Shown here piece by piece: positions 882 through 29,423 of a DNA stretch of 64,000 bases; position 1 is the first letter of the stretch; each line of letters begins with the position of its first letter. The position numbers were made by a program, and so were the translations under genes. Below the pieces are notes generated by a model. It was given only the letters and a program-made list of their open reading frames with translations, ran no database searches and was not told where the DNA came from. This DNA comes from Owenia fusiformis (Eukaryota). The DNA lies in the NCBI GenBank assembly GCA_903813345.2, contig CAIIXF020000001.1, forward strand, positions 3,038,001 to 3,102,000, written 5' to 3'.

Positions 882-2774
882 GGTGTTGAAAAAGGATCGT
901 GGAGACCGAGTTGATGTCAACAACTTCATAATGCTGGCAACTGACGGTGTGGCCTACCCATGCTGTACAGCTAGTTGTTGTCATATGAGCACAGGCACTA
1001 TACAATGCCCCACCACTGACTACCCATGCATAACTCAAGAAGATGCGACAAGGGTAGTTTTCGTAATCATACTTTATTAATTAGGTTGTGTGATCTTGAG
1101 GTCCAAAGTGCATCGTTCCATAAGAAGTTCATATTCATTATCGCAAACAATTTCAGAAGGTTATATCTTGGATTATGACTATTTTCTGACAATGAAGACA
1201 AGTTTATCTTTTAGATCAATTCATTATCTCAAAGAAAATTATGCACAGTAATAATACATTCAAACAAACTCGGAGATATTTAACTAGCAATTAACCCATC
1301 AACACACTTTTTGACCCCATTTTGAAGATGTTGACCCCATTTTCACCAAAAATGCAATCATTTTTTACAATGTTTAATGCATTACTATTCTTTATTTTGA
1401 TGTATCAAATAGTTCTTGAAAGAAAAATTTAATTGCATTAAGATAAGTGTTCCCCATGTTATTTCTCCATTGAAAAATCCCATGCTATCCATTGGTTTCA
1501 GTTAATTTTGGTCATCCAAATTGAATATCTTTAAAGTCCCGGGAGCAATCAAATTTTCCTTTTAGGAAATCGAACATTTCTCAAACCACATTCTAATTAT
1601 GCATTCAATAATATAATAAAAGGTTGCATTTTTGGTGAAAATTAGGTCAACATTTTTGAAAAAGTATGTTGATTGGTCCATTGCCCCTTCAATATCACTT
1701 AGGTCTGATTAACTAAATTATCATTATACTTTTCTTGAAGATAATGAATGGATCTAAAAGATACACCCATGTTCATGATAAAAAAATATTCATAATTCAA
1801 GTTAGAATCGTTTGAAATTGTTTGCGATAACCTACGTGCTCCTTTTCAAAATTTGGGTCCAAGGGCCCACAATTTTTTGTAGAACTTTGTAGAAATCTGG
1901 ACCCACCCTTGTTAGCTCTTGCAATCCGCCATTGTAGTTATTCTTAATTATCTTATGATTAGAATCGGTATAAACCAAATAGTATACCAATTACATTGCA
2001 GGAAGTGGAACGTGTTGCTAAGAAACTGAAAGCAAATTGGAGAAATGACGTATACGTTCTTGCTCTTCCAAATAGACCTGATCGCGGGGACCCATTTAAG
2101 AAACACGCGGCAGCAAAAAAAGGTATGTAGGCTGCATACCAGCATAAGATTAATACATTCTTGGAAATCCTCTGTTTGCATGAAGGTTAGCTATTAAAAA
2201 TACTACCTATTTATTTGTAAAATGTGTTATAATTATTTAGACCTGTGTGCATATCATGTATAATGTTTACGTAATAAAAAAAACACTTTTGGTTAAATAA
2301 CTAGTGCTGTTATCGTTCCAACAGCTATGTTACAATATGAGGCACTTGTAAGAAATACCATTACTGGCATCAAAACACTGGAACAGTTCAATGAGTTGGA
2401 AAACATTGTGAAAGAAATCGTCAACAGAGTATGCGCGGCTGCTGATGGCATCTGTAAGTTATCATATACATAAGCTTAGTTGTTTACAAGATATTATAAG
2501 GATGTCCCGTTAGTTACGTTGACATTGACAGTTCGCCAATTTTAAGTTTTCAACTATTTTTTAAATTTAACTTGTTTCTTCTGATCATGAATGACTTTGA
2601 TATCCCCATTATCACTGTCATCGCTTTTGAACATTTACAAATATAATTCTGACTGTAGGTTATTTTTTTCATTCAGTATTTTTCAAAAATGCTATTTGTG
2701 TTTTGTGAACTCTGTGATAACTTCAATATTCTTACTTTCCAGATCTGTCACCTCCATCAAAGGGTGTTAAATGA
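882..2774 (+). CDS. 3' end of a VWA-domain gene, tandem paralog of the CA-VWA gene at 8236-29423 (5' part lies upstream of the window)
   Basis: AG/GT-bounded, phase-compatible exons 882-1053 (VLKKDRGDRVDVNNFIMLATDGVAYPCCTASCC...), 2002-2122 (EVERVAKKLKANWRNDVYVLALPNRPDR...), 2325-2453 (MLQYEALVRNT...RVCAAADGI) and 2743-2774 (YLSPPSKGVK*). Exon by exon these match 28166-28337, 28485-28608, 29052-29180 and 29401-29423. AATAAA at 2975-2980. Confidence 0.9.
1086..1872. mobile_element. Degenerate foldback/MITE-like element in an intron
   Basis: Imperfect inverted arms, e.g. TATCGCAAACAATTTCA (~1140) vs TGAAATTGTTTGCGATA (~1813), and TCTTTTAGATC..TTCATTATCT vs AGATAATGAA..GATCTAAAAGA. Boundaries approximate. 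Confidence 0.6.
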
Positions 2775-8235: not shown

Positions 8236-11200
8236 ATGATATTGTTAATATTAGCTGTTTTACCGTTAGTTAATAGCCAAGGTACGTTCTACTTAGAGTT
8301 TCATTCAACATTTATATACAATATTGACCATAAGAGATCATTAGCTATTGAGTATATGATCAAACCAAATTATAACAATACTTTATTTCCGTTAAAACAT
8401 AATCCGTATATACCGTATATGTTTTTTATTTATTAATTTATCGGAATAATGTTAAATAAAAAGGCACACAAAAATAAATATTTGTAGTGCACATATAGGT
8501 TTAAAATTAACCCTTAATGTTTTTGCCATTCACAGGATGGAACTATGGCAGTTTAGGTAAGTTGTTATTCAAATTTATTTAAAAGACAATGGTTTCTAGG
8601 AGACAAAACAATTTTCTTAAGTAAGTTAGCATTATTCAGATCATATACCTGGTATGTTCTCCTCCCAAGATAGACAGATTACGGCTATATAACTGTAATA
8701 CTATATAATTTGACACTCTCTTCAACTGCAGGACCAGTTACATGGGCAGATAACTTCCCGCAATGTGGAGAGGCGAACCAGTCCCCCGTTAACATAGATA
8801 TTGGCGCCGCAGAATATGACTCGAGCTTAAATGCGTTCGGATTCCGTAACTTTGATAAAAAAGCTAATAATGAACTTGAAAATACAGGGACTACTGGTGA
8901 GTATAACCGAAACAAACTATTATATTGATATGCTGTAATATTAATTCGAGTCTAAATATGCTGATGCTAATAAATAACCAAGACTTACGATAATAAGAAA
9001 GGACCATTTTCGGTTTGGAGAATGACGTTCATCGGTAGATTGAAATGTGATATTTTGAATATTTAAGATTTGATTATGGTGATATTTTTATTTATTTCAT
9101 AAAACATATATTAGCGACCCCCCCCCCCCCTCAATATTTCACGTGTAAAAGTCCAATAGACGAAAATCCCAATTTTGGACTTTGAGGTCATTCCTTACGG
9201 TCAAGGTCAAATGTCAAGGTCAAAATGTTGACCTAATTTACTCTATCTGAGTACAGTGTAATACAATGGTTTTTGAACTTTTTGACCTTTTCAAGGTCAC
9301 CCAGAGATCGGATTCCAAAACCGGAAGCATATTTGGAATCGGGCGCTTCTATACTTTATATTTCCTTGGAATCGGGCGCTTCTATACTTTATATTTCCTT
9401 AGAATTAGGATCCAGGTCATACTTTTAAATTATGTCCCACTGGGGTGCCCCATTTTTCAAAGAGGGTCACCCAATTTAAAAACCAGGAATATTTGTGAAA
9501 TGAGAATTGTGAGGAATGGCATATGCAAATTTTGGGTAAAAAATAAAAATTGTTGCTCCTTGTAGGTACAAAAATGTAGAACAATGCTCCTTGTACCGAG
9601 AAATCGAGGCAATATACAAGAAAAAATCCTATTAAAACTATAAGAAAAAGAGTAAAACCAATAGAATGCCAGTTACCTCGATAACAGCATCTAATTAAGT
9701 CTTACATATTCAAAAGATCACATTTCAATCTACTCTTGGAGACTGGATTTTATCTATCCCACATCATTTGAGACTGAATGCTCTATCTTGTATGAGTACT
9801 TGTATCTACAACAATTTTTGAGGTTATGAGTATTGGCTATCAATTGGCTATTAATTTCTAATTTTTTCTTGACTGGTATGCACTTAGAGTTTGCTTTTTC
9901 TTGCTAAGTTCCATTACAACTTTTGGTCCTTTCCCTTTTGGCACTAGTGCTTATATATCTATACAAAAATCAAAATTGTTGGCGACAATGATAACGTCGA
10001 AATAATCCGATGAAATCCATTCTCCAAACCGAGAATGGTCCTTTGAATGTAATTTACGTAGCCCTGATACATTTTCGTTACAATGGAGTCCTTGTGATTC
10101 CAACAATGTTTTAAAACTACACCTCTTCAATTTATGATATCTGTGCGATAAATATGTATAAATCATGATAATTTTGGGTATCAATAATGTTGAAATCGGT
10201 TTTACCACAATAGCAAGAATGTTGCTTGGGGAGAATAAAGGAGTTTTCCTTTACAATGGCGGACTGGATGGCAGATATATCACAGAGGGGTTCCACTTTA
10301 GATGGGGATCTGATCACACAATCAACGGTCGTCAATTTCCACTTGAGGTAAACACCGGTTCCTATTCCACTGGTGTTAAAACACGAATATACCATGAGCA
10401 CATGCTTTGAGCATCCGCGTTGTTTGAACCTACCGCCAAGCACACTTATACATTAAGACCCCTTACACAGTCATGATACCGCCGAGCAAGCTCATTGCAT
10501 CATCGGGTCTGCTTTACCCCCGTGTATTCTACGGATTCATGTGATTAAATGCATTTCCATTATTTGATAATAGCACCTGCTTCATGGGTGGCAAAACTGT
10601 CTACATCTTTGAAGCTATGCAAGAACTTGTTTTACAAACTAGATCGTAGTTTTGGATATTGTCGGATCGTTGTCATAATTGAAATATAATGATGCTTTTT
10701 TGTGAAGCAATTGCGTATTTTTGCACCTGTGCTTATATATTCATACTTTTTTTTAAATTTTAGCTGCACATTGGGAGTTATAGTGCGAAATTCGGAACCT
10801 TTATGGAAGCGATTGGTGCTTCGGCCACCGAACCAGATAGCGTAATGGCCATGGCCGTACTTTTTGAGGTACACATACACTTTGTCATTTCAAACAATTT
10901 TTTGTTCAACTGGGCCGAAGGTAATGCTTAGAATCTTTTTCAAAGTGTGTCAACAATTTATCCTTGATTGAACAGCGTAAATGTCAACAAAAGACGTTGC
11001 TGTCTGACGAAGTAATCAGAAATAGTAAATAACGGTCAATGCTGTCCGGGCCAATATCAGTTCCAATATGATATATGTCCTTCCAGATATCACCCAACGA
11101 TAACGTAGCCCTGGAGCCAATTGTGAATGCACTCGGACAAATACAAACTGCAGGTATGGACATCATTTGGTTACACATTAAATATATACTAGATAAAGTA

Positions 11201-14200
11201 TATCGGATGTCCATAAAAATGAGACACTTTTGACAAATATTTACTCGGCAACTGATGAACCAAATTTAATTCGTACAAAGTAGCCCAGGAGTATGATTGG
11301 CAAGGAACAAATAAATGAAAAAGATCAAATAAATTGTATGTAAATACTAAGAAATTCAAAGTAGCACGTCAAAAAAAGATCCCATACAGAGCAACGCAAT
11401 GAGAACTTCATAGCGGCGTTTGTACCGAAAATGGGAAGCAATTTAACAAGTAATTTCTCAGCAATTGATGAGCAAAATTATTTGAAAACCTTACTTTAGG
11501 ATATCTTCTGCCAATCCTATGAATATATAAGAGATTTTTTACATTATTTGGGTGTTTTTAAATTAAAGACAGTATGTCAAAATAACCAATAGCCTATCAA
11601 TGTAAAAGTCACTTATCAATCCATTTCAATGCAAAAATACTTTTCTGTTTTTGAATATTTGGGAAGAATGAAACGAATTGATTAGACATGACTCGCAGAC
11701 AAACTGTTTTGACTGACTGACAGATGCTATACTACGGAAAGCGAAAGGGGATATACCGCAGAATTTAAAATTCAATGGAGTTTTAACATGGGAGTGATAT
11801 CACACACCGCGGCCCGGTCAGATATATTTTTTTGCGCACTTTATTTATTTAATTCACTTTGCACAACGCGCCCCTGTAATTCATTCAGTGCGCAATTAAA
11901 AATTGTTTATGAGTGATATCGCACACCGCGGCCCAGTAAGATCGATTTCTGCGCACTTTATTTATTAACATACTCAAAATATCGCGCTGAAGCTTGTATA
12001 TGCTTGCGCGATGTAATTATAGTTTTCTGTTAATAAATGCCCAACAAGAAAGGGTAGCACAACGAATTCAACTTTTTTCGAAAGACTGCAGACTTGACCT
12101 GCGAAATTGTAATTTTGGATCACAGTGATGCCTCTAGAGAGGATATCTATGAGAATTACAGATTATAGTGCGCAGAATTATAAAGTCAAACTGACCTAAA
12201 AATGGCAGTACACGGTGTACACTGCCATCTTTCAATAAAGTAACTACAGACCTTCGTATACAAAATACCAGAATGATTGATGTAATACCTGTATACCATT
12301 TCTTCTGGGAGAAGGAAAGTTCCTATATGTATTCCATGGCCGTAGCCAGGGGGCCTCACCCCCCTCCCCCTTGCCAAATATTCGTTCAAAATCATGCAGT
12401 TTTTCACCATTCTTAGCACTTTTCGCATGATTTTTTTGCCATAACTGTCAAAAAACTCCCCCCTCTTGGCAAAATCTCCCCCTTGGTAAAACCACTCCCC
12501 CAGGTTAATCCAGGATACGGGTCTGTATTCTTAGACGAGATTGTTCAAGAACATAAGGTAGACATAAGTGCCACCTGTTAAAAGCTAGGAGATCTTTTCT
12601 AAGTTATTAAGTCATCAATCAGCAGACTGGTAATTGTATCCCCCACCCACTTCAAACTCCATACACTAACATACTATTACAATTTTATCTGTGTTTATTT
12701 GACTGTAGAAGGTGTACATTCATAGCATTGAATTGCATTTCATTGCATTGTATTGTATTGTATAGCACATCATTGTATTGTATTGTACTGCATTTTATTG
12801 TATTGCACTGCATTGTATTGTATTGCACTGCATTGTATTCTATTGCATTATATTGTACGGAAAGCTATAGGGGACATGCGCATAATTCAAAATCGAATGG
12901 AGTTTTAACATGGGAGTGATATCACACACCGCGGCCCAGTCAGATAGATTTCATCGCGCACTGAATGAATTACAGGGGCCGCGTTGTGCAAAGTTAATTA
13001 AAATAAAGTGCGCAGAAATTCCGGCATTCAGTGCGCGATGAAAAAATGATTATCTGTGAATAAATAACGAATAAAAATTCGTGGCACCACGAATTTGATT
13101 TTTTTCGAAAGACTGCGGAGTGAACCAGCGAAATGACAATTTTGGATAATATTGATGGCTCTAACAAGGAGAACTTTGAAATTTCCCGATTCTACCGCGC
13201 AGCACATCCAGGACCATGATGCGCACTTTTATCAGATTCGTTTCTAATATGGTTTCAAAGATAATGTTCATTAAAAGAGGGCGTATGCATACAGATTACA
13301 CATGGCGTTATGTTGAAGTGACCCTTGCAAAGGGTTCCATTGAAAATATATTATTTTGGGCCATTTCATATCTTTTAATTGATATTGTATAAAATATTTT
13401 CAATGTTTGAAAATTATAATCTTATAAATAACATTTTATGTAATAAAACTGTAACGAAATGGTAAATACGGAATATGATGCAATACAATGCAGTGCAATA
13501 TGATGTTATACAATGCAGTGCAATATGATGCAATACAATGTGGTGCAATATGATGTAATACAATGCGGTGCAATATGATGCAATACAATGCAGAGCAATA
13601 TGATGCAATACAATGCAGTGCAATATGATGCAATACAATGTAGTGTAATATGATGCAATACAAAGCAGTGTTATATGATGCACAAAATGCAGTGCAATAT
13701 GATACAATACAATGTAGTGCAATATAATACAATAAAATGCAGTGCAATACGATGCAATACAATACAGTGCAATATAATGCAATACAATGCAGTGCAATGC
13801 AATACAGTGCAAAACAATGCCGTGCAGTGCAATACAATGTAGTTCATTTCAATACAATGCAGTGCAATACAATGTGGTACAGTGCAATACAATGCAGTGC
13901 AATACATCGCAGTTCAATACAGTGCAATACAATGTAGTGCAATGCAGTGCAATAAAATACAATGCAGTGCAATACAATACATCGCAGTTCAATACAGTGC
14001 AGTGCAATACAATACAGTGCAATACAATACATCGCAGTTCAGTGCAGTGCAATACAATTCAGTGCAATACAATACATCGCAGTTCAATAGAGTGCAATAC
14101 AATGTAGTGCAAAGCAGTGCAATAAAATACAATACAGTGCAATTCAATACAATGCAATACAATACAATACAGTGCAATACAAAACAATGCTGTGCAATAG

Positions 14201-17200
14201 AATACAGTACACTGCAGTACAATACAATGCAGTGCAATAAAATGCAGTGTAATTCAAGACAATGCAATAAAATACTGTGCAATACAGTACAGTGCAATAT
14301 AATACAATGCAGTGCACTGCAATACAATACAGTGCAATATAATACAATGCAGTGCACTGCAATGCAATACAATATGGTGCAGTGCAATATATTGCAGTGC
14401 AATTCAAAACAATGCAGTGTAATACAATGCAGTGCAACACAATGTGGTACAGTGCAATACATTATAATGCAGTGCAATACAATACAATGCAGCGCAATAC
14501 AATGTAGTACACTGCAGTACAATACAATGCAGTGCAATAAAGTACAATGCAGTGCAATATAATATAATACAGTGCAATACAGTACAATATGATGCAATAG
14601 AATACAATGCAGTGCAATACAATACAATGCAGTGCAATACAATAAAATGCAGTACAATACAATACAATGATGTGCTATACAATACAATACAATGCAATGA
14701 AATGCAATTCAATGCTATGAATGTACACCTTCTACAGTCAAATAAACACAGATAAAATTGTAATAGTATGTTAGTGTATGGAGTTTGAAGTGGGTGGGAG
14801 ATACAATTACCAGTCTGCTGATTGATGACTTAATAACTTAGAAAAGATCTCCTAGCTTTTAACAGGTGGCACTTATGTCTACCTTATGTTCTTGAACAAT
14901 CTCGTCTAAGAATACAGACCCGTATCCTGGATTAACCTGGGGGAGTGGTTTTACCAAGGGGGAGATTTTGCCAAGAGGGGGGAGCTTTTTGACAGTTATG
15001 GCAAAAAAATCATGCGAAAAGTGCTAAGAATGGTGAAAAACTGCATGATTTTGAACGAATATTTGGCAAGGGGGAGGGGGGTGAGGCCCCCTGGCTACGG
15101 CCATGGAATACATATAGGAACTTTCCTTCTCCCAGAAGAAATGGTATACAGGTATTACATCAATCATTCTGGTATTTTGTATACGAAGGTCTGTAGTTAC
15201 TTTATTGAAAGATGGCAGTGTACACTGTGTACTACCATTTTGAGGTCAGTTTGACTTTATATTTCTGCGCACTATAATCTGTAATTCTCATAGATATCCT
15301 CTATAGAGGCATCACTGTGATCCAAAATTACAATTTCGCAGGTCAAGTCTGCAGTCTTTCGAAAAAAGTTGAATTCGTTGTGCTACCCTTTCTTGTTGGG
15401 CATTTATTAACAGAAAACTATAATTACATCGCGCCAGCATATACAAGCTTCAGCGCGATATTTTGAGTATGTTAATAAATAAAGTGCGCAGAAATCGATC
15501 TTACTGGGCCGCGGTGTGCGATATCACTCATAAACGATTTTTAATTGCGCACTGAATGAATTACAGGGGCGCGTTGTGCAAAGTGAATTAAATAAATAAA
15601 GTGCGCAGAAATATATCTGACTGGGCCGCGGTGTGTGATATCACTCCCATGTTAAAACTCCATTGAATTTTAAATTCTGCGGTATATCCCCTTTCGCTTT
15701 CCGTAATATTGTACTGTATTGCACTGTATTATATTATATTGCACTGCATTGTACTTTATTGCACTGCATTGTATTGTACTGCAGTGTACTACATTGTATT
15801 GCGCTGCATTGTATTGTATTGCACTGCATTATAATGTATTGCACTGTACCACATTGTGTTGCACTGCATTGTATTACACTGCATTGTTTTGAATTGCACT
15901 GCAATATATTGCACTGAACCATATTGTATTGCATTGCATTGCACTGCATTGTATTATATTGCACTGTATTGTATTGCACAGTATTGTATTGCATTGTCTT
16001 GAATTACACTGCATTTTATTACACTGCATTGTATTTATTGCACTGCATTGTATTGTACTGCAGTGTACTGTATTCTATTGCACAGCATTGTTTTGTATTG
16101 CACTGTATTGTATTGCATTGTATTGAATTGCACTGTATTGTATTTTATTGCACTGCTTTGCACTACATTTTATTGCACTGTATTGAACTGCGATGTATTG
16201 TATTGCACTGTATTGTATTGCACTGCACTAAACTGCGATGTATTGTATTACACTGTATTGTATTGCACTGCACTGTATTGAACTGCGATGTATTGTATTG
16301 CACTGCATTGTATTGCACTGTACCACATTGTATTGCACTGCATTGTATTGAAATGAACTACATTGTAACTGTATTGTATTTTATTGAACTGCATTGCACT
16401 ACATTGTATTGCACTGTATTGAACTGTGATGTATTGTATTGCACTGCATTGTGTTGCACTGTACCACATTGCATTGCACTGCATTGTATTGAAATGAATT
16501 ACATTGTAACTGTATTGTATTTTATTGCACTGCATTGCACTACATTGTATTGCACTGTATTGAACTGCGATGTATTGTATTGCACTGCATTGTATTGCAC
16601 TGTACCACATTGTGTTGCACTGTATTGTATTACACTGCATTGCTTTGTATTGCACAGTATTGTATTGCATTGTCTTGATTTACACTGCATTTTATTACAC
16701 TGCATTGTATTTTATTGCAGTGTAATGTATTGTATTGCACAGCATTGTATTGTATTGCACTGTGTTGCATTGTATTGAATTGCACTGTATTGTATATTAT
16801 TGCACTGCATTGCACTACATTGTATTGCACTGTATTGAACTGTGATGTATTGTATTGCACTGCATTGTATTGCACTGTGCCACATTGTATTGCACTGCAT
16901 TGTATTGAAATGAACTACATTGTAACTGCATTGTATTCTATTGCACTGCATTGCACTACATTGTATTGCACTGTATTGAACTGCGATGTATTGCACTGCA
17001 TTGTATTGCACTGTACCACATTGTATTGCACTGCATTGTATTGAAATGAACTACATTGTATTGCACTGCATGGCATTGTTTTGCACTGTATTGCATTGCA
17101 CTGCATTGTATTGCATTATATTGCACTGTATTGTATTACATCGTATTGCACTGCATTTTATTGTATTATATTGCACTAGATTGTATTGTATCATATTGCA

Positions 17201-20200
17201 CTGCATTTTTTGCATCATATAACACTGCTTTGTATTGCATCATATTACACTACATTGTATTGCATCATATTGCACTGCATTGTATTGCATCATATTGCTC
17301 TGCATTGTATTGCATCATATTGCACCGCATTGTATTACATCATATTGCACCACATTGTATTGCATCATATTGCACTGCATTGTATAACATCATATTGCAC
17401 TGCATTGTATTGCTACGGAAAGCGAAAAGGGGATATACCGCAGAATTTAAAATTCAATGGAGTTTTAACATGGGAGTGATATCACACACCGCGGCCCAGT
17501 CAGATATATTTCTGCGCACTTTATTTATTTCATTCACTTTGCACAACGCGCCCCCTGTAATTCATTCAGTGCGCAATTAAAAATTGTTTATGAGTGATAT
17601 CGCACACCGCGGCCCAGTAAGATCGAGCTGCGCACTTTATTTATTAACACACTCAAAATATCGCGCTGAAGCTTGTATATGCTGGCGCGATGTAATTATA
17701 GTTTTCTGTTGATAAATGCCCAACAAGAAACGGTAGCACAACGAATTCAACTTTTTTCGAAAGACTGCAGACTTGACCTGCGAAATTGTAATTTTGGATC
17801 ACAGTGATGCCTCTAGAGAGGATATCTATGAGAATTACAGATTATAGTGCGCAGAATTATAAAGTCAAACTGACCTCAAAATGGTAGTACACAGTGTACA
17901 CTGCCATCTTTCAATAAAGTAACTACAGACCTTCGTATACAAAATACCAGAATGATTGATGTAATACCTGTATACCATTTCTTCTGGGAGAAGGAAAGTT
18001 CCTATATGTATTCCATGGCCGTAGCCAGGGGGCCTCACCCCCTCCCCCTTGCCAAATATTCGTTCAAAATCATGCAGTTTTTCACCATTCTTAGTAGCAC
18101 TTTTCGCATGATTTTTTTGCCATAACTGTCAAAAAGCTCCCCCCTCTTGGCCAAATCTCCCCCTTGGTAAAACCACTCCCCCAGGTTAATCCAGGATACG
18201 GGTCTGTATTCTTAGACGAGATTGTTCAAGAACATAAGGTAGACATAAGTGCCACCTGTTAAAAGCTAGGAGATCTTTTCTAAGTTATTAAGTCATCAAT
18301 CAGCAGACTGGTAATTGTATCCCCCACCCACTTCAAACTCCATACACTAACATACTATTACAATTTTATCTGTGTTTATTTGACTGTGGAAGGTGTACAT
18401 TCATAGCATTGAATTGCATTTCATTGCATTGTATTGTATTGTATAGCACATCATTGTATTGTATTGTACTGCATTTTATTGTATTGCACTGCATTGTATT
18501 CTATTGCACTGCATTGTATTCTATTGCATTATATTGTACTGTATTGCACTGTATTATATTATATTGCACTGCATTGTACTTTATTGCACTGCATTGTATT
18601 GTACTGCAGTGTACTACATTGTATTGCGCTGCATTGTATTGTATTGCACTGCATTATAATGTATTGCACTGTACCACATTGTGTTGCACTGCATTGTATT
18701 ACACTGCATTGTTTTGAATTGCACTGCAATATATTGCACTGCACCATATTGTATTGCACAGTATTGTATTGCATTGTCTTGAATTACACTGCATTTTATT
18801 ACACTGCATTGTATTTTATTGCACTGCATTGTATTGTACTGCAGTGTACTGTATTCTTTTGCACAGCATTGTTTTGTATTGCACTGTATTGTATTGCATT
18901 GTATTGAATTGCACTGTATTGTATTTTATTGCACTGCATTGCACTACATTGTATTGCACTGTATTGAACTGCGATGTATTGTATTGCACTGTATTGTATT
19001 GCACTGCACTGTATTGAACTGCGATGTATTGTATTGCACTGCATTGTATTGCACTGTACCACATTGTATTACACTGCATTGTATTGAAATGAACTACATT
19101 GTAACTGTATTGTATTTTATTGCACTGCATTGCACTACATTTTATTGCACTGTATTGAACTGCGATGTATTGTATTGCACTGCATTATATTGCACTGTAC
19201 CACATTGTGTTGCACTGTATTGTATTACTCTGCATTGCTTTGTATTGCACAGCAATATATTGCACTGCACCATATTGTATTGCACTGCATTGCAATGCAC
19301 TGCATTGTATTATATTGCATTGTATTGTATTGCACAGTATTGTATTGCATTGTCTTGATTTACACTGCATTTTACACTGCATTGTATTTTACTGCAGTGT
19401 AATGTATTGTATTGCACAGCATTGTATTGTATTGCACTGTGTTGTATTGCATTGTATTGAATTGCACTGTATTGTATTTTATTGCACTGCATTGCACTAC
19501 ATTGTATTGCACTGTATTGAACTGCGATGTATTGTATTGCACTACATTGTATTGCACTGTACCACATTGTATTGCACTGCATTGTATTGAAATGAACTAC
19601 ATTGTATTGCACTGCACGGCATTGTTTTGCACTGTATTGCATTGCACTGCATTGTATTGCATTATATTGCACTGTATTGTATTGCATCGTATTGCACTGC
19701 ATTTTATTGTATTATATTGCACTACATTGTATTGTATCATATTGCACTGCATTTTTTGCATCATATAACACTGCTTTGTATTGCATCATATTACACTACA
19801 TTGTATTGCATCATATTGTATTGCATCATATTGCTCTGCATTGTATTGCATCATATTGCACCGCATTGTATTACATCATATTGCACCACATTGTATTGCA
19901 TCATATTGCACTGCATTGTATAACATCATATTGCACTGCATTGTATTGCATCATATTCCGTATTTACCATTTCGTTACAGTTTTATTACATAAAATGTTA
20001 TTTATAAGATTATAATTTTCAAACATTGAAAATATTTTATACAATATCAATTAAAAAATATGAAATGGCCCAAAATAATATATTTTCAATATTTTAGATA
20101 TATTTCATATTTTAGAATCGAATCTGATAAAAGTGCGCATGTCCTGGATGTGCTGCGCGCTAGAATCGGGAAATCTCAAAGTTCTCCTCGTTAGAGCCAT

Positions 20201-23200
20201 CAATATTATCCAAAATTGTCATTTCGCTGGTTCACTCCGCAGTCTTTCGAAAAAAAATCAAATTCGTGGTGCCACGAATTTTTATTCGTTTTTTATTCAC
20301 AGATAATCATTTTTTCATCGCGCACTGAATGCCGGAATTTCTGCGCACTTTATTTTAATTAACTTTGGTCAACGCGGCCCCTGTAATTCATTCAGTGCGC
20401 GATGAAATCTATCTGACTGGGCCGCGGTGTGTGATATCACTCCCATGTTAAAACTCCATTCGATTTTGAATTATGCGCATGTCCCCTATAGCTTTCCGTA
20501 CTATACACCTGATAACTGGTACAAACGCTATTTAGGTCTCATCGCAGAGCTCCGTTATTGGAATTTTTGGCATGCGATTTTAAATTTCAAATTGTTAGTA
20601 CGCGCACAGGTTATTTACTTTTTCCATATATTTTACAAGTTGCTAATGATACTCCTAGGCTACTTTGTACACATTTTCAGTGAATTTGGTTCATCATTTT
20701 TTGGGACACCCGATATATGTGCAATAAATGTAACATTATTCGGGTTAGAGTATATTTAGTATTTTGTTCTCAGACTCGTGACATTTTACCGCAACATTAC
20801 ATGCATACGTTGTTTAAATCGTTCATTTCCTTACAAGGCTCAAAGGCGAAGATCACAGGTAGTCTCCGATTTGAGGATCTTCTGCCATTCTCCGCAGCGA
20901 CAAATTATTACAGATACCAGGGAAGGTTTTCCAACCCACCATGTTTTAATACCTTGTGGACGGTTTTCGCAGACACTGTTTTGATCTCAGAAAGACAGGT
21001 AACATTCAGTAAATTACATTTGTATAGTTCATGGTTATTTTACGGTTGACCACGAGATGCAATGGGTGTTATCTTGCCTAAATATGTACAGGGTGTCCCG
21101 AAAGTATGCTTCCCCCTAGGCAGACATATACTAATGTCTCCATAGTATGTGTCATTTATAATTTTAAAGCTCTTCCAATGTTACATTGATTTGCCAAGTA
21201 TCATGGTTCAACTCACACATGTTAAAAAGTAACAGGCATTTCAAAAGTGATAAAACCATGATACTTGGCAAATCAATGTAAGTTTGCAATTGTATGAGCT
21301 TTAAAATGATATATGACACATACTATGGGCCCATTGGTATATGTCTGCCTAGGGGGCATACTTTCGGGACCCCCTGTAGGTACTTAATTTATACATTTTG
21401 GAACTTCAAGATAATGGCTTCTTAACATGCGCAACAATTATAATCCCCTAAACAATAAATATTATACTTGCATCTGCTACTTGTAGCTGGAAGCATTCAA
21501 AGGTCTCAATGACATGGATGGAAATCCTTTGAAGGACGTTTTCAGACCAACCCAGGATCTTGGAGATCGTATTGTCAAGTCAAGCGTTCCACCTCAAATG
21601 GAATTTGTCCCTGGTTCTCCACCGAGGAAAGGTCGGTGTAAATCAATCTACCTATTAGTTTAAGACGTTTAATTTACGCAAAAATACTTCAAAAATATAA
21701 GGTTTAATAATTTTCTGTTTCATCATTACGAGGGGTGATCAATAAGTAATGGACGCTTTTTTACACAGATACTTTTTATGGACCAATCCCTTTGATTTTC
21801 TAACCAGTGATGCATCATTCACTTATCTATCAATTCTGAAGATTTGAAGACAAAATATATAATACATGTTGATCTATTCTTATTTCTGTGAAGGAGGTAC
21901 AGGTACCCCGGGACCGACATTTACGTCACATATTCAGTTTTTAGCCAGTTTGGCAAATTTCAGTTACATTTACACTTATTTTATATGCAACAAGTGTTGT
22001 GTTGTTTCAAACATTTTGCTGACTGGTTACACGTAAACAGTAAGTGATGTGATGTCAGAGTGTTGTATGGTCGGGGTTTCCAGGTCAATTTGAGGAAGCA
22101 TTGTGGAAGAAGGGGTTGGTGAGAGAAAGAACCCCCCACTCCATATGGACAATTCACCTGCCCACATATCTCAAAATGTTCAGAAAACAATATTCCTAGA
22201 CCTCAAAATTGAGCTCTTGGCCATTGCACCATATTGTCCAGATCTGCTCACATGTGACTTATTTATTTCTATACTACTTATTTCTATAGAGAAGGGACGC
22301 AGATTTATTGACATTGATGAAATAAAACAACCCGTGCAACTGCATCTTGCTACCATGTCAGAGAATGGATTCAGCCTTGTCTCACAATCTTGAGTTAAGA
22401 GGATGAAGAATTCTGTACATGTAGCACTTGATGGAACCTATGTAGAGGGCCCTGTAGAATGAATGTGACATGAGTACCACATAGTGATGATAAAATATTC
22501 AAAATCAACTATGGCATAACAAAATGGGGTAATTCATGACCATAATGGTTTGTTTTGTTCAGCCTGCATTCAACTGCGTTGCATGTTAAACAAGCTAAAA
22601 TAACTTCAGAATGTTTGACGTAAATGTCGGTCCCGGGGTACCTATACCTCCTTCACGGAAATAAAAATATATCAAAATATATTACATGTTTTGTTTTCAA
22701 ATCTTCAGAGTTGATAGATATTTGAATGATGTATCACTGGTAAGAAAATCAAAGGTATTGGTCTATAAAAAGCATCCGTGTAAAAAAGCGTCCATTACTT
22801 ATTGATCACCCCTCGTATTTATCCTCTGTATGACGTGTCCTTATTATATGTTTGTAATATCATCTGTTTTATCAATGAAGCCTGTGTTGATGTGTTTTTC
22901 GTCATTGACGAGAGTTGCTCTGTGTATGAAGACATGCAGAAAGTTAAAGATTTCATCAAGGATCTAGTTGATGGAATTATTGTTGGAGATGATGCAGTGT
23001 TAATGTCTCTCGTGAGGTATGTAACCGATTTTTATTATTATTAGATTTATTTTCCCTCCATTGATTGGAGATAATATAATAATTATATATTGCAGTATTA
23101 TTGGATGCGTATCAAAATTTAAACAACAATAGACAAAATAGAACTCTAATAAACACCAATAACATTATAAGTAGGATCTGAGAATTGATAAGAGTAGGTA

Positions 23201-26200
23201 TAATGCACAAAGATGAACATAAAAAGCTATGAAATACTTGGAACCGCATACATCTTCCCCAAGGTCGATGTTGCATGTCCAGGTGGTCATTCTTGCTACG
23301 TGTTAAAATATTCTATGCAATTCATACGAGCTATACATGATTTGACAAGATAAAAATTTTCCTTATGAAAATACACCTGTATTCTGAGATAACTGACGTT
23401 CCGTTGGTCACACACGGTGCTCATCACACACTCATCGTAGGGGGACGGCCTGTTTATATATAACTATTAACTTATACATAGCTATCCCAGGTAAATCTAA
23501 TTGACTCCAATCCGGGCGAGGTACATGTTCTGTATAATAGTGCTCACGCGTTTAAGTCCACTTTCGTTAATACAGTTGTCTCCCCCGAAGAGAGCTCGCA
23601 GTTTCATTGAATTTGACATTGCACTAATGTTTGGTACTCCATCTAGAATTGTATTTAATGTGCCCCTATTGTGCAGTCTACATTTTAAGACAAAGTGTTC
23701 AAGCGTTTCAATTTCCTCATAGCAGCTCTCACAAAACCTATCTCTCAACGGTATTCCCTCCCATTCGCCTGTGTTAATTCTTAAGCGGCCTTGTCCGACC
23801 ATTAAGCGTACCATTAAGCGTACCATTAAGTTACATCTTTTAATGAACCTTGAATCACTCCTAGCTATTGTCCACCATATACAGGGTTTCACACATTGGA
23901 TAACTTCCTTATAGAGTGTTAGTTCTTTATATGTGTTAACTTCGTGTCTCCAACCATCCAAATCGCAATTCCTTATCACATTCTGCACATGGCGTTTCCA
24001 TGTCAATTTTGATGGATTTGCACCATTGTCCAGTACTTGATATATCGATAGGGAGGTTAAGCTACACATTTTGAATAAAATTTTGAACGCTTTCACGTAC
24101 AAGTCTTCTTATAGCAATTAACCCCCTTATGGGTAAGCCGAATATCCCAAACTATAATAAATCAACCGATGAAAAAATGTCAAATCCTCTTTCCTCACCA
24201 TTCAGTAAGGAAATTCTTATAGAACATGCTGAAGAACAAAGTAAAAACTATTTCCAATCTCCTTAACATCGAGATTAAGCCGCCAAAATAGTCCTTAGAA
24301 AACAATTAACAAAGAAGGGTTTCGATCCACATTCCTCAACCTGCATTGTTTTAGCATCACTTAGACTAATCGTTGAATGTTTCTATATTCATAAATTATT
24401 ATACAAACAGTACATGCTTACCCCTACCCAAGCTTATAGAAATTGACTTGATTTACAGATACAGTGCTCCAGTGAATATGAACTTCTTCCACAGTATGAC
24501 GACCAGCAATGATGTTGTAAAGGGATTCATAGATACACAGCCATTAGGACAACAGAGCACTTGTAGAACGCATACCTCACAAGCTCTCAAGTTCAATTCA
24601 AATAGGTCAGTACACACGGTGACTATCCAGGCCCCGTATATCGCGAGCAAGTTCCCACTGACAAATAAAGATATAATGAGTTTCACTTACTAAAGCTTCA
24701 TAGATATTTTATATATCAATTTTATCATATCTCTCAAGGCCCCGATTCTAACATGAGTACAACATGTTAGAATATGATTATCAGAATCACGTGGTCTCTC
24801 GTGTCTTCAGCGCTTGTAAATTAGCCTTACTATTACTTTTTTTAATAAATGAATATTAATAACAGAATTTGGTGTAAAGTTCGGGTAATTTTCTTGTACT
24901 ACACATATTTCGTCACACGGTTGTTTTAGGTTCTTTGGTCTAGGCAAGTGGGACAACGAAACTGCAGAGCGTGACTTTGGAATTAGGAATATTGCCCCTG
25001 ATGTCATGATCATAATAACAGATGGAACCTCTATTCCGATGAAAGGTCGACCTTGTAAGCGTAACATATTTTTAATATTAAAAGGAGTTCCTTTTAACCC
25101 ATTTATCTTATAACTTAACTAATGTTAATAGAGCATAAAGAGTAATAATGCCAAGTTAACTTATGCTTCGAATTAATTTTCAATGAATAATATTAACTTC
25201 ATTCAAATAAGTGCAAATGCTTTCCTAGTCTACTTTTGCATTAACCTTTAAGCACAACCTAAATAAATAAAAGGGAAGATATATATACCCTCCATCTGTA
25301 AAGAAAAAAGGTGCAAGGTCCTTTATTAATCATATCTTTTTATTGTCCATTGTTAATGTTATACTAAACATCCAGAAGTATATGTACGTATACTTTGACC
25401 AAATGGGGAAAATTCCAAAGAATTCCGTTTATGTCGTGAAGAGTTAAAACGAATTGAATGGAACCACCCACAAAAGCATGAGTGTGACTTTTTACTATAA
25501 ATTGACGTCATAAATATGAGAAATGCGATAAAGAGCATTTTTCTCAAAAAGGGGATCTTATGCGACGTGAAATTAAATTGTAAGACTTCCACCAGTTATT
25601 CACAATATTTATACGATGTGTCTTTAAGAGTTTAGTGAAATAATAATTTTTATGATTGATGCACCGTTTTTTCTTTGAAGAGGGCACATGTATTGACAGT
25701 CGATAACTGGATAATATTGATGATGTCATCGACATTATATAAACTGTAATAACATTTTCATTGATCACTAGCCGCCTTGGCAGAGGCCGCCAAACTGAGG
25801 GCACGGGGAGTTGAGATTTACACCATCGGGCTGATAAATCAAAATGAACGTGATGGTTCAGTGGAACTGCGAGGCTTTACTGGGGGAAATGATGACCATG
25901 TCTTTGATATAAATGATGAAGGTTTAGCCGGACAATTTGCGGATATCATCAACTCTTACAAGACATGTACAGGCGACAAAGGTAAGGCATTTTCGACCCG
26001 ATTTTATAATTATTTTGTCCAAAAATTTAACACTTAAAGGGTGACGCATATCGTTTAGCAAATCGAACGCTCGTTTCTGGTGTTGCTCACCGTTTAGTAT
26101 AAAAGGCCCGATCCCGGAATAATACTCAAGGGTTCACAGGTTCGATGTCGTTGTGTCAACACCTCTAACTGTTATATAGCATAAGTATATTATAGATCGT

Positions 26201-29200
26201 CACACATTTATAAAAGGGTGATTTTTATTTTGACAAATCAATTTCAAATTTATGGGTGAAGTTTCAGGATCTTCTATTTGTGTATAATAAGGAAAAATTG
26301 GCATCTAAATTTCCCCATAACGTAATAGCACACAGCTTGGCATATGAAATATCCTACACAAATGAAACAAAGCAGTTCTAACACAAGGATTTATATTGGC
26401 TGTTGTACATGTACTGTTTGAACGCATTCACTCCATGGATAACGTTTTCAAAATCATTATAAACGGATTACTTTATCTCAAAGACAATTTCAATAAACTG
26501 GATTTTACAGAACTCCCCTTATTTCTTAAAAATGGACTGATCCAGTTGATTCGCCTGGAGCCGCCATATTGTTTTTATACGGGATGCTTATCGGAACCCT
26601 TTAAGAAAGCAGCTCGGACTAAGAAAAGGAAAATAACAAAATTTAATGTTTAATTGCTGTCCATTTGGAATTTCAGAAAACAAAATTTGAGAAACAGAAA
26701 TATTCTATCATAAAAATTCTTATTTTTCATCCAGATTGTTCCCAACTGGACATGGTGTTGGTGATAGACACGTCACAGAGTTTACTCAAATCTACTGAAT
26801 GGGAACGGATCAGGAAAGACCCAGATAACCACCATGAGATAAAATCTGTAAATCTGATGGCTGTTAAGACATTTTTCAAACAGTTACTAGCTGCCGTCCC
26901 AATAGGTATTGTTATTTGGCATCTGGTCGTATGAACCTGTAGTTGGTTTTGGCAGTAGCTGAATTTATTAAATATACCGCGGGAGTATTGGAGAGGCATA
27001 ACTAAGGCCAAATGTATACCAAACAAGACAGTATATCTATAAATACCAAATAACATTCGGCTACGGTCTCGTCGCTAGCATTCGAATCTCCGGTTCCAAT
27101 CTAGGCTATTCATATCATGGAATAAAGGTGCAATACAAATTTGAAGGGTTCCACTTCATATTAAATATGATTTACTTTTGGGTAAGAGTCCTAAAAGCTA
27201 TACCAACGTGTACAACGAGATTTGACAGACGCAGCTCATGACTATGATCGCCGCCTATTTTAATTCAATACTAAATTTGAAAACACTATATCTCATCAAC
27301 TTTAACAAGTCCATCAACTTTTTACTGGGTTATAAAAGTTTGAGAGTAAAATATTATTATTTCATGAGATGAATCTATGCTAAAACAGAAGGTGTCCAGT
27401 AAAAGTGCTAACATGTTTATTGATGCATCTCTTATTTATTTCCATCTAGGCATGGATAAAACGAGAGTGGCCATCGTCTCATTCGATGAAGTGGTTACGA
27501 TCCACCAATACCTCGATGAAACTACGGACTATGCAGGAACAAAGGATACGTTGACAAATAGTGTCATTGATTATACAGGCGTTGGGACACGTACAGATGC
27601 AGCACTTCAATATGTTCTTAACAGGTGAGGTTAGCTGAATTAGCAACCAAAAACTAAATATCTTATCTCTGATTGATAATGATCAATGCTTGAAATTTGA
27701 TGAGTTCATAAGGGTTTTTGTGAAAACGATTCTAGGACCAATTACCCTTCGGCTGTCTTCAAAGTTAAGGTTAACTGTGTAAAAATATGCAGAGAACATC
27801 TTCTAATAACAATACAGAACACTAAAAGCAATTCAACTGACGGATTCAGTCATTAATTCCACGGCCGTTGGTATCAAAAGAAGTCGGGGGATTACCATAT
27901 ACTGTTTAGAGGAGACTTCTACCTCCACTTCCAGTTTCATTTTCATAACTTTTGATTCCCACCATGCTCTAAACGTAAAACATTTATTCTTCAGATGGAT
28001 ATTCTATTTGTTGAAGTCAAAAATAAATCCTTTAAATCAATTTAAGAATTATCACACTATGGAAAACAATCCATTCTTCTCTATGGTTGCAAAAAGTTCA
28101 ACAAAGCAAAAACACCATACGGAACATATGTTCAATGATGCATGGTTGAACACATTTGTGTTTAGGGTATTGAAAGGAGATCGTGGGGATCGTGAGGATG
28201 TAAACAACTTCATTATGATGGCGACTGATGGAGTTGCGTTTCCATGTTGCACGGCTGGCTGCTGCATGAGTAGCACGGGAAACAACACATGTCCAAGAAC
28301 TGACTACCCATGTATCTCCAAGAGTGAAGCCATAAAGGTGAGTCCTTTTCGTTCTCAGAATATACTAGATTACTTCAATCACAATGTTATCCGAATTTAG
28401 TCTAATTCGAACATCCACAATTCATCATATATCAGATATTGTTTAAGAATTATTGGACAACCCTTTCATAACAACTTTTTCCAGGATGTGAAACTTGCTG
28501 CTCATGAACTGAAAGAGAATTGGAGAAATGATGTCTACATACTTGCGCTTCCAAACAAACCCGATCGAGAAGATAACTCAGCTAAGAAACAAATGCAAAA
28601 GAGAATAGGTTTGTATGCTTATATATTATATATTATTATATGAAGGTAGCAAAATTGATTTCTTTTTATGGAACATACCTGTAAAATTGTTAAATATGAA
28701 GATGGCTTTTGTGCGGAGAAGGTAATTCATTTACAACCTGTGATATTGATTTTCGTGTATTAATTTTGTATTTTCTATTGTAAACAGTGGTTAATAAGCC
28801 CAGTGTGGGCTAGGTAAAATTGAAATTAATTTTGTATATTTTATAATTGAATTGTAAGACTAACCACTATAAATAAATAATTAAACTAAACTAAACTATA
28901 TAAATACTGAAACATATTTGCGAAGTCAAAGAACTTTATGAAAGATTTTTTGTACATTTTTTGAAATTTTATTGTTTATTGACCAAACATCTCTTAACAA
29001 GGCAAAATAACTTTAATCAATGTGTCTAATACTCGTTATGTATACCAACAGCAATGTCCTTATATGAGGCACTTGTAAGAAATACAGCTACCGACATCAA
29101 AACACTGGAACAGTTCAATGAGTTGGAAAACATCGTGAAAGAGATGATCAACAGAGTTTGTGCAGCTGCTGATGGCCTCTGTAAGTAAATTATGTGTCAT

Positions 29201-29423
29201 GAGCCTCAATGCATACAGCGCATGTAAACCCTTATTCTAGCATTAAGATTTATTTTATTTTTTATTTTAACAGTTTTTCGACGTAATCCAAGAAACGGAT
29301 TGTAGTGAATAAAACCAGGCATAAAAAATTATTGTGTGCACCATCCACAGATACATAAAAATTACAAAAATCCAGTAATACGGTATTCTATACTTTTCAG
29401 TTTTGTCTGCTCCGGTTCCTTAA
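8236..29423 (+). CDS. Secreted alpha-carbonic-anhydrase-related (probably acatalytic) domain plus two von Willebrand factor A domains, about 751 aa
   Basis: Exons: 8236-8281, 8536-8556, 8732-8896, 10214-10347, 10764-10868, 11087-11153, 20838-20998, 21487-21631 (signal peptide and CA); 22881-23016, 24459-24605, 24930-25054, 25772-25981 (VWA1); 26735-26905, 27450-27624, 28166-28337, 28485-28608, 29052-29180, 29401-29423 (VWA2). All introns GT-AG with matching phases; total 2256 nt, no internal stop. Signal peptide MILLILAVLPLVNSQ. CA motifs WNY..GP..W, QSPVNI, FHFRWGSDHTING..FPLELH, YYRYQG...PPC...WTVF, RPTQ.L..R.V. VWA MIDAS motifs DESCS..T..TDG and DTSQS..T..TDG. Confidence 0.9.
12335..12525. 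mobile_element. Small GC-rich MITE inside arm A (also present in the other two arm A copies)
   Basis: Imperfect TIR CATGGCCGTAGCCAGG / CCAGGATACGGGTCTG, flanked by direct repeat TATTC (12330-12334, 12526-12530). Confidence 0.55.
12856..15705 (-). mobile_element. Complete inverted copy of the same TIR element, inserted in the satellite of copy 1
   Basis: TACGGAAAGCTATAGG at 12856 and CGCTTTCCGTA ending at 15705; own 6-bp TSD ATATTG (12850-12855, 15706-15711); arms are near-identical reverse complements of 11733-12725 and 19956-20500. Confidence 0.9.
13475..14715 (-). repeat. Variant pentamer satellite (CAATA/CAATG/CAGTG)n inside copy 2
   Basis: Visible 5-bp periodicity. Confidence 0.95.
15712..17413 (+). 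repeat. Variant pentamer satellite (TATTG/CATTG/CACTG)n of copy 1, continuing 12725-12855
   Basis: Visible 5-bp periodicity; resumes directly after the ATATTG TSD. Confidence 0.95.
17414..20500 (+). mobile_element. Third, direct-orientation copy of the TIR element (arm A, satellite, arm B)
   Basis: TACGGAAAGCGAAAAGGGGATATACC at 17414; arm A near-identical to 11733-12725. Left flank TATTGC does not match right flank CTATAC. Confidence 0.85.
18407..19955 (+). repeat. Variant pentamer satellite of copy 3
   Basis: Visible 5-bp periodicity. Confidence 0.95.
21089..21376. mobile_element. Palindromic Tc1/mariner-type MITE
   Basis: CAGGGTGTCCCGAAAGTATG / CATACTTTCGGGACCCCCTG with TA flanks; the two halves are inverted almost throughout. 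Confidence 0.85.
21729..22815 (+). mobile_element. Internally deleted mariner element with transposase remnant
   Basis: TIR CGAGGGGTGATCAATAAGTAATGGACGC extending about 200 bp; TA TSD. ORF 22103-22393 contains LHMDNSPAHIS...APYCPDLLTCDLF, matching the mariner HDNAPAH..S and PYSPDLAP.DF catalytic motifs. Confidence 0.9.
23497..24102 (-). mobile_element. 5'-truncated non-LTR retrotransposon (C-terminus of ORF2)
   Basis: 201-codon ORF containing LRINTGEW..IP..DRFCESC...IETLEHFVLKC, the CCHC zinc-knuckle region typical of LINE ORF2 C-termini. Antisense within an intron. Confidence 0.8.

What the first reader, a model, noticed from the sequence alone, without database searches (positions are those of the whole stretch)
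8732..20998. Remodelled CA active site, suggesting an independently evolved pseudo-enzyme
Seen (human CA II numbering, aligned by eye): NNGH becomes NTGT (H64T). QFHFHWG becomes GFHFRWG (Q92G, H96R; the codon is AGA at 10300-10302, three changes from a His codon, so not a single-base error). The loop before SEH is deleted and E106 is D. H94 and H119 are kept. GSLTTPPC becomes GRFSNPPC (S197R, L198F, T199S, T200N). The extracellular disulfide Cys pair and structural motifs remain. Established: vertebrate CARPs VIII, X and XI have Arg at position 94, not 96. Inference: separate loss of catalysis, with two new arginines possibly forming an anion-binding pocket.
Basis: partly seen in the sequence, partly recalled or inferred. 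Interest (0 to 1): 0.7.

Follow-up and report, generated by a model that had tools for sequence, protein, structure and literature searches.

The report
Dead carbonic anhydrase fused to VWA
A tube-building marine worm gene joins a carbonic anhydrase domain that lacks one of its three zinc-holding histidines to two adhesion-type (VWA) domains; it is one of seven such genes in the genome and likely makes a secreted, non-enzymatic matrix-binding protein, a new domain combination of a familiar kind of dead enzyme.

Summary
All listed substitutions are real: H64T, Q92G, H96R (codon AGA, also in a second haplotype), E106D, S197R/L198F/T199S/T200N and the shortened loop. H94, H119 and the Cys pair are kept. 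It is one of seven CA-VWA paralogues, none with His96, and is the least eroded of them. The CA domain folds like CA II and is under purifying selection (dN/dS 0.29). Separate loss of catalysis is supported: the genome has its own CARP VIII orthologue and a CARP X-like gene; grouping with CARP VIII is rejected, with CARP X not formally. The two-arginine pocket is weak. Arg96 and Arg197 occur in only 2 of 7 paralogues, and Arg197 lies in a probably gene-converted tract. The short loop occurs in 50 of 199 intact-triad CA domains, and Arg96 occurs elsewhere. Arg67 (5 of 7) is the better anion candidate. Repeatedly invented secreted CARPs are published; I found no paper on the fusion. The scan had already noted two paralogues on other DNA.

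The parts
8236..8281 (+). Exon 1: start codon and hydrophobic signal-peptide-like N-terminus (judged by eye, no predictor run)
8536..8556 (+). Exon 2, 21-nt mini-exon with the N-terminal Trp-x-Tyr of the CA fold
   Evidence: same mini-exon in paralogue A
8732..8896 (+). Exon 3: CA domain, Cys23, QSP motif, Thr at position 64
10214..10347 (+). Exon 4: Arg67 (10216-10218), Gly92, His94, Arg96 (AGA 10300-10302), 3-residue loop, Asp106, His107, Glu117
10764..10868 (+). Exon 5: His119, Gly121 (Val in haplotype X2), Ala143
11087..11153 (+). Exon 6, CA domain
20838..20998 (+). Exon 7: R197 F198 S199 N200, Cys203, Trp209; 91% identical to paralogue A with a 54-nt identical run (probable gene conversion)
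21487..21631 (+). Exon 8: end of the CA domain (Val244, Arg246) and Pro-rich linker; phase-1 intron follows
22881..25981 (+). Exons 9-12 (22881-23016, 24459-24605, 24930-25054, 25772-25981): VWA domain 1, residues about 282-485, with DxSxS, Thr and Asp MIDAS residues
   Evidence: splice 25981/26735 in RNA reads
26735..29180 (+). Exons 13-17 (26735-26905, 27450-27624, 28166-28337, 28485-28608, 29052-29180): VWA domain 2 with intact MIDAS motif and a Cys-rich insertion
   Evidence: splice 28608/29052 in RNA reads
29401..29423 (+). Last exon and stop codon as in the database model P0001; an alternative acceptor near 29274 also gives a short open end and is untested
882..2774 (+). 3' exons of tandem paralogue A (P0002), whose CA and VWA1 exons lie just upstream of the window

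Best explanation
The gene encodes a signal peptide, an alpha-carbonic-anhydrase domain with Arg in place of zinc ligand His96, and two VWA domains with complete MIDAS motifs; the product is likely a secreted, non-catalytic matrix linker in which the VWA domains would grip acidic residues of partner proteins through Mg/Mn and the CA domain would serve as a folded binding or spacing module. Shown: architecture, substitutions, fold prediction, purifying selection, seven paralogues without His96, low-level spliced transcription of the VWA exons. Inferred origin: a copy of an ordinary extracellular CA gained VWA exons at a phase-1 intron in place of its C-terminal tail, shortened the 97-105 loop and lost the zinc site. 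The gene then multiplied, and each copy's cavity drifted separately while fold residues and MIDAS motifs stayed. Inferred and untested: no zinc binding, no CO2 hydration, secretion, the partner, and the tissue (tube, cuticle or mucus are guesses from the animal's biology).
For: Pfam CA 23-266 plus VWA twice. Seven strong matches of the VWA1 first exon, each downstream of CA-like exons. Triads 94/96/119: HRH, HRQ, FFM, NNT, KNQ, INQ, IKQ; Thr199 is Ser or Pro in 7 of 7; His107, Glu117, Cys203 and Arg246 are kept in 7 of 7. DxSxS of VWA1 is present in 7 of 7. dN/dS between A and B: CA 0.29 (0.20-0.42), VWA1 0.15, VWA2 0.16. All internal junctions are GT-AG and the frame is open. Six CA introns are shared in place and phase with intact-triad CAs of this genome, and P0095 has a phase-1 intron after its CA domain. 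The closest solved sequence and fold is the acatalytic CA-like domain of PTPRG. The VWA folds match CMG2/TEM8, TRAP, collagen VI and the tandem-VWA mussel byssus protein PTMP1. PMC4981384 reports secreted CARPs reinvented repeatedly with poorly conserved cavities.
Against: No binding partner, tissue or assay. The CA-to-VWA splice (21631/22881) was not among the joints listed (8 not shown), and CA exons 1-5 had no RNA reads in the 6-12% of three runs read. Reading through the exon-8 donor gives a stop after 11 codons, so a CA-only form is possible. Family monophyly is moderate (86/82; 91/48). This copy keeps two ligands (His94, His119), the same number as CARP VIII, so weak metal binding is not excluded. 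The model of VWA2 is of low confidence (pLDDT 46-75). The PTPRG likeness is similarity, not orthology.
Confidence: 0.6

Rival explanations
1. The former active-site cavity was converted into an anion or polyanion (sulfated glycan, phosphate, carbonate) binding crevice, as in vaccinia D8. This is the first reader's idea, but Arg67 is the more likely key residue, with Arg96 possibly helping in copies A and B.
For: Arg at CA II position 67 in 5 of 7 paralogues against 1 of 199 H-H-H domains. Further basic residues at 65, 91, 94 or 96 in several copies. Arg96 is kept in A and B with different codons (AGG, AGA) in an exon at dS 0.74. D8 has a CA fold with a positively charged crevice that binds chondroitin sulfate E (PMC4256255 passages) and ranks sixth in the fold search (Z 29.1).
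Against: Arg96 and Arg197 are each in 2 of 7 paralogues; A lacks Arg67. Arg197 lies in a probably converted tract. The domain is acidic overall (pI 4.84), with Glu at 91 and Asp at 106. From recall, Ser197 of CA II points into a buried Ser29/Tyr194 network, away from the cavity; a paper search for this found nothing. No coordinates were available to map the charges.
Confidence: 0.17
2. The CA domain has no ligand of its own. It is kept only as a stable spacer or secretion/folding aid, and its cavity residues are drifting.
For: Cavity positions 64, 92, 94, 96, 106, 119 and 200 differ among paralogues while fold residues are invariant. dN/dS of the CA domain is about twice that of the VWA domains. 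Gly/Val polymorphism at 121.
Against: The domain is kept whole in 7 of 7 copies at dN/dS well under 1. Gln119 in 4 of 7 and Arg67 in 5 of 7 suggest some constraint near the cavity.
Confidence: 0.12
3. This copy is still a weak enzyme: His94 and His119 plus water or another residue hold zinc and give low CO2 hydration at a matrix surface.
For: It is the only family member with two of three His. E106D, a non-His 64 and the short loop each occur in intact-triad CAs. Ser199 keeps a hydroxyl.
Against: Arg at 96 both removes a ligand and puts a positive charge at the metal site (inference). H64, Q92, V121, V143, L198, T199, T200 and N244 are all changed together. Its tandem twin has also lost His119. 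By alignment no replacement His, Cys, Asp or Glu sits at a first-shell position; this was not tested on coordinates. Recalled, not found: CA II His-ligand mutants lose zinc affinity by orders of magnitude.
Confidence: 0.08
4. The gene is a decaying pseudogene, or the fusion is an annotation artefact joining two neighbours.
For: No RNA reads on CA exons 1-5 and no listed CA-VWA joint.
Against: Open frame with canonical splice sites over 18 exons; dN/dS 0.20 overall; same order and intron phase at seven loci on three contigs; no start or signal exon was seen in front of VWA1.
Confidence: 0.03

Closest known systems
CA-like domain of receptor tyrosine phosphatases PTPRG/PTPRZ (PDB 3jxg, 5e5r)
   Same: Best sequence match in the PDB (E 1e-34) and best fold match among representatives (Z 33.5). 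An extracellular, zinc-site-defective CA fold used as an N-terminal module of a multidomain protein; 5e5r is a complex with contactin Ig domains (title).
   Different: PTPRG keeps His96, lacks His94 and His119, and has the long loop (alignment). It is a membrane receptor with phosphatase domains. No orthology shown; PTPRG was not in the trees.
Lineage-specific secreted CARPs of cnidarians and sponges (PMC4981384)
   Same: Secreted, arise repeatedly from active extracellular CAs, often in tandem arrays, poorly conserved cavity; H/R at position 96 and Gln at 119 are within their reported range.
   Different: No VWA fusion is mentioned in the passages read; here a seven-gene family with two MIDAS domains.
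Vertebrate CARP VIII, X, XI
   Same: Alpha-CA fold with at least one zinc His replaced.
   Different: Arg at 94 and His96 kept (VIII, X); long loop; no VWA; this genome has its own separate counterparts.
Mussel byssus PTMP1 (PDB 4cn8) and collagen VI/matrilin-type VWA matrix proteins
   Same: Tandem VWA domains in a secreted matrix protein (Z 17.6 over 360 residues, rmsd 15.6 across both domains).
   Different: No CA domain; about 22% identity; a shared fold shows no shared ligand.
Vaccinia D8 ectodomain (PDB 4e9o)
   Same: CA fold used for adhesion through a basic crevice.
   Different: D8 lines the crevice with at least six Lys/Arg; here the domain is acidic and the basic residues are few and not shared by all copies.

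Membership tests
Alpha-carbonic anhydrase fold family (PF00194) | Profile match and alpha-CA fold | tested here: met
   198.6 bits, cut-off 27; TM 0.89 to CA II
Catalytic alpha-CA | His94, His96, His119 zinc triad | tested here: not met
   H-R-H
Catalytic alpha-CA | Gatekeepers Glu106 and Thr199, shuttle His64 | tested here: not met
   Asp, Ser, Thr; the first two are conservative changes
Catalytic alpha-CA | Measured zinc binding and CO2 hydration | not testable with these tools
   needs recombinant protein
CARP in the broad sense (alpha-CA lacking one or more zinc His) | At least one triad His replaced, fold kept | tested here: met
   definition from PMC2873310 and PMC4981384 passages
CARP VIII orthologues | Clade with CARP VIII; R-H-H triad; no signal peptide | tested here: not met
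   separate orthologue at G000:C3:26.07 Mb; joint clade rejected, p-AU 0.003
CARP X/XI orthologues | Clade with CARP X/XI | tested here: inconclusive
   not joined in either best tree, but not rejected (p-AU 0.109). The stand-in at G000:C2:0.21 Mb (T-H-Q) is labelled CARP X-like from recall; one search found no CARP X structure to confirm it; no vertebrate sequence was in the tree
CARP X/XI orthologues | R94-H96-Q119 triad | tested here: not met
   H-R-H here; R-H-Q per PMC4981384
Extracellular animal alpha-CAs (ancestry) | Cys23-Cys203 pair, signal peptide, shared intron positions | tested here: met
   C34/C215; 6 of 6 internal introns shared (5 with P0060, the sixth with P0095)
MIDAS-type VWA domains | VWA profile and fold with DxSxS, Thr, Asp | tested here: met
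   the motif definition is recalled; Thr and Asp were placed by sequence only
MIDAS-type VWA domains | Metal-dependent ligand binding | not testable with these tools
   needs binding assays

The most novel reading that the evidence does not exclude
The seven Owenia CA-VWA proteins are a family of two-headed adhesives for tube building. The old CO2/bicarbonate cavity has been rebuilt around Arg67 (with Arg96 in this copy) to hold carbonate, phosphate or sulfated glycan, so that it grips shell fragments or the organic lining while the MIDAS domains grip secreted matrix. The diverging cavities give each paralogue a different specificity.
Probability: 0.1. Interest if true: 0.7.

Novelty: new variant of a known kind. 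Interest (0 to 1): 0.4.

Why it matters
Dead carbonic anhydrases arise again and again in animals, and what the secreted ones do is open. This family is a compact natural series: seven copies in one genome, from two zinc histidines kept to none, all tied to intact adhesion domains. CA and VWA are both named as recurring domains of shell-matrix toolkits (PMC13425148 passage); here they are in one polypeptide. The active-site changes alone are ordinary for a CARP. The fusion is what is new, and its function is untested.

Tried and rejected
Assembly error at the Arg96 codon: rejected. Loop deletion as evidence of inactivity: rejected. Transfer from short-loop algal or plant CAs: the tree neither shows nor rejects it (p-AU 0.338), but six shared animal introns argue for shortening in place. 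Kinship of A/B with P0097, an unnamed tandem CA whose second domain has L94-R96-D106-Q119 and the short loop: not shown, not rejected (p-AU 0.466, long branch). The order of losses at 64, 94, 96 and 119, including whether His119 of this copy is a reversion from Gln, is left open. No RNA holder was listed by the run index; raw reads were laid instead. The word-based protein searches found few relatives (2, 4 and 1 hits). The ESM Atlas gave only generic VWA or CA clusters. PDB sequence searches with a VWA-only paralogue fragment and with exon 4 alone found nothing at the thresholds used. Paper searches for CA II His96 variants and Ser197 gave nothing usable (listing only, 91). A search of two supplements of PMC9977687 for expression rows had no hits; one supplementary PDF was unreadable. 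The large tree is a quick search only. Six of 22 assembled Owenia rows were dropped from the tree (near-duplicates and one gappy long row), and only 11 of 53 outside rows were kept. The fold tools gave no coordinates, so a third zinc ligand and the Arg side-chain directions were not examined. No complex prediction was sent: there is no candidate partner.
Full report
Observation. HMMER alignments to human CA II variant chains 4pxx and 6nj2 confirm the numbering: T64, G92, H94, R96, D106, H119, R197, F198, S199, N200, and a six-residue gap between WG and SDH. The Arg96 codon is AGA at 10300-10302. A contig of run X2 covers 9975-10395 with no other letters, while the same run differs at 9 sites in 8550-9123 and 15 sites in 10532-11201. 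The exon-4 changes therefore stand in a second haplotype. That run reads T at 10774, giving Val instead of Gly at position 121. An AlphaFold2 model of the domain from 54 sequences has mean pLDDT 94.2 and matches CA II at TM 0.89.

The whole gene. The finding's interval holds exons 3-7 of an 18-exon gene at 8236-29423 on the + strand. My model has GT-AG at every internal junction and agrees with database protein P0001 up to the last exon (751 aa, named Owenia fusiformis by its sources). Pfam gives a CA domain and two VWA domains. Both VWA domains have DxSxS and the later Thr and Asp of the MIDAS motif (motif recalled). Raw RNA reads show two predicted splices, 25981/26735 (4 reads in X12) and 28608/29052 (8 in X12, 1 in X13), on the strand expected for a + transcript in a stranded library. 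Coverage is low. CA exons 1-5 had no reads in the 6-12% of three runs that were read, and the CA-VWA joint is not among those listed (8 joints not shown). The fusion therefore rests on gene structure and repetition, not on a read.

The family. Searches of the own genome found seven genes with this layout: A and B (this gene) in tandem at C1:3.03-3.07 Mb, C at C3:27.36 (only VWA1 found), D at C1:14.79, and E, G, H at C4:10.60-10.81. The first VWA1 exon has 7 strong matches, all at these loci, and 1 weak match elsewhere. Of the 150 best hits among 1.84 billion representatives, plus the other proteins then held (159 in all), only 5 had both domain types, all from Owenia. Only the top 150 of 6071 hits were seen, so absence elsewhere is not proven. 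Positions 94/96/119 read HRH (B), HRQ (A), FFM (C), NNT (D), KNQ (E), INQ (H) and IKQ (G). Position 199 is Ser or Pro in 7 of 7. All seven have the short loop. His107, Glu117, Cys203 and Arg246 are invariant. Gene B is the least eroded member. The AGA codon needs no special account: Asn (AAC/AAT) and Lys (AAG), each a step between His and AGR Arg, occur at 96 in four paralogues; this path is an inference.

Selection. Between A and B, dN/dS is 0.29 (bootstrap 0.20-0.42) in the CA domain and 0.15 and 0.16 in the VWA domains. The protein is maintained, with the CA domain under looser constraint. Exon 7, which carries GRFSNPPC, is 91% identical with dS 0.18, against 0.46 or more in the other exons. 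It holds a 54-nt identical run reached by 8 of 10000 codon shuffles, while its flanking introns are diverged. This points to gene conversion, so Arg197 in two genes is one witness, not two.

Independence. The genome has a CARP VIII orthologue (best PDB hit 2w2j, 63 bits against 38 for the next; R-H-H) and a T-H-Q gene that I label CARP X-like from recall (could not confirm it). In a careful tree of 29 rows the seven CA-VWA domains form one group at 86/82. Joining them with the CARP VIII gene is rejected (p-AU 0.003); joining with the CARP X-like gene is not (0.109). A second tree of 36 rows gave 91/48 for the family and could not reject a link to short-loop algal and plant CAs (0.338). However, all six introns inside the domain fall at the same place and phase as in this worm's intact-triad CAs, so descent from an animal extracellular CA is the simplest reading. 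The introns before, between and after the VWA domains are all phase 1, and the intact-triad CA P0095 has a phase-1 intron after its CA domain, which fits exon shuffling (inference). No vertebrate CARP or PTPRG sequence was in the trees.

How unusual is the site? Among 238 CA domains from 134 held proteins, 199 have H-H-H, and 50 of those have the same three-residue loop, many reading HFHWGSEH. Arg at 96 occurs in 6: A, B and four domains of two unnamed proteins. Arg at 197 occurs only in A and B. E106D occurs with H-H-H in 2 of 53 rows. PMC4981384 (passages and section 22 read) reports that secreted CARPs were reinvented many times in cnidarians, often in tandem with active genes and with poorly conserved cavities. 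It gives R/H/Y-H/R-Q/H as a permissive triplet for metazoan CARPs. Independent loss of catalysis in a secreted CA is thus a known pattern.

The anion pocket. Arg96 and Arg197 are absent from 5 of 7 paralogues, the domain is acidic (pI 4.84), and Glu91 and Asp106 are nearby in sequence terms. Vaccinia D8 shows that a CA fold can bind a sulfated glycan in a basic crevice (PMC4256255, passages). The idea remains a live rival at about 0.17, centred on Arg67. Without coordinates I could not check side-chain directions or a third ligand.

Mechanism. Most likely (0.6) this is a secreted non-catalytic linker. The MIDAS domains would bind matrix partners through a divalent metal, and the CA fold would act as a binding or spacing module, as in PTPRG, the closest solved structure. 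The VWA1 model matches CMG2, TEM8, TRAP and collagen VI at Z 18-20, and the pair matches the mussel byssus protein PTMP1. The VWA2 model is of low confidence. I put loss of useful catalysis at about 0.9. Partner and tissue are unknown.

Literature. Searches for Owenia with carbonic anhydrase (6 papers listed), for CA with von Willebrand, acatalytic and annelid (25 of 26 listed), for CA domain with VWA domain and fused (0), for Owenia with von Willebrand (3 of 4 listed) and for Owenia tube cement glands (4) showed no title or abstract on this fusion; I saw listings only, except where stated. I read passages of PMC2873310, PMC13425148, PMC13434096 and PMC13367328; the last reports CARP expansions in malacostracans. 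Two supplements of PMC9977687 had no hits and one was unreadable; expression tables that I could not see may bear on the tissue question. The library lacks most subscription papers.

Earlier scan notes (opened after my reading was fixed) describe paralogues A and D in the same terms. They are not independent support.

Verdict. This is a new variant of a known kind: an ordinary route to a dead secreted CA, in a domain combination for which I found no description. Interest 0.4.

Noticed in passing
window 20838-20998 and G000:C1:3034638-3034798: Exon-limited probable gene conversion between tandem paralogues A and B: 54 identical bases, dS 0.18, diverged introns.
   Followed up: yes
window 10774: G>T in run X2 turns Gly121 back to the usual Val: a polymorphism in the former hydrophobic pocket.
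   Followed up: partly
window 11154-20837: 9.7-kb intron filled with pentamer-type satellite arrays on both strands and blocks repeated in inverted orientation (same text near 12200-12900, 14400-15250 and 17870-18700).
   Followed up: no
window 21729-22815: Element with about 38-bp terminal inverted repeats flanked by TA and a broken transposase-like frame (22094-22390) in the intron between the CA and VWA exons; mariner-like by recall.
   Followed up: no
window 23500-24108 (-) and 32045-33243 (+): Open frames resembling retroelement remnants (a Cys/His C-terminal region; two overlapping ORF1-like frames); resemblance recalled, not tested.
   Followed up: no
window 49075-49338 (-): EGF-like exon (six-Cys pattern) of a neighbouring gene on the minus strand.
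   Followed up: no
G000:C3:28850000-28888000 (-): A second cluster of CA-like genes lacking His94 (V94, H96, 4-residue loop) with altered 197-200 loops and no VWA found nearby.
   Followed up: partly
G000:C12:29.82 and 29.87 Mb (P0095, P0175): Intact-triad CA pair with Arg64, Asp106 and Ala143, sharing two of this gene's changes.
   Followed up: partly
P0097 residues 342-582: Unnamed tandem CA protein (6 cluster members) whose second domain has L94, R96, D106, Q119 and the same short loop: convergence or distant kinship, unresolved.
   Followed up: partly
G000:C4:10.60-10.81 Mb and C3:27.37 Mb: Paralogues C, E, G and H carry a Thr/Pro-rich mucin-like linker after VWA1, absent from A and B; E, G and H have Arg in place of Trp209.
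   Followed up: partly
window 42184-42683: Assembly gap of 500 N.
   Followed up: no
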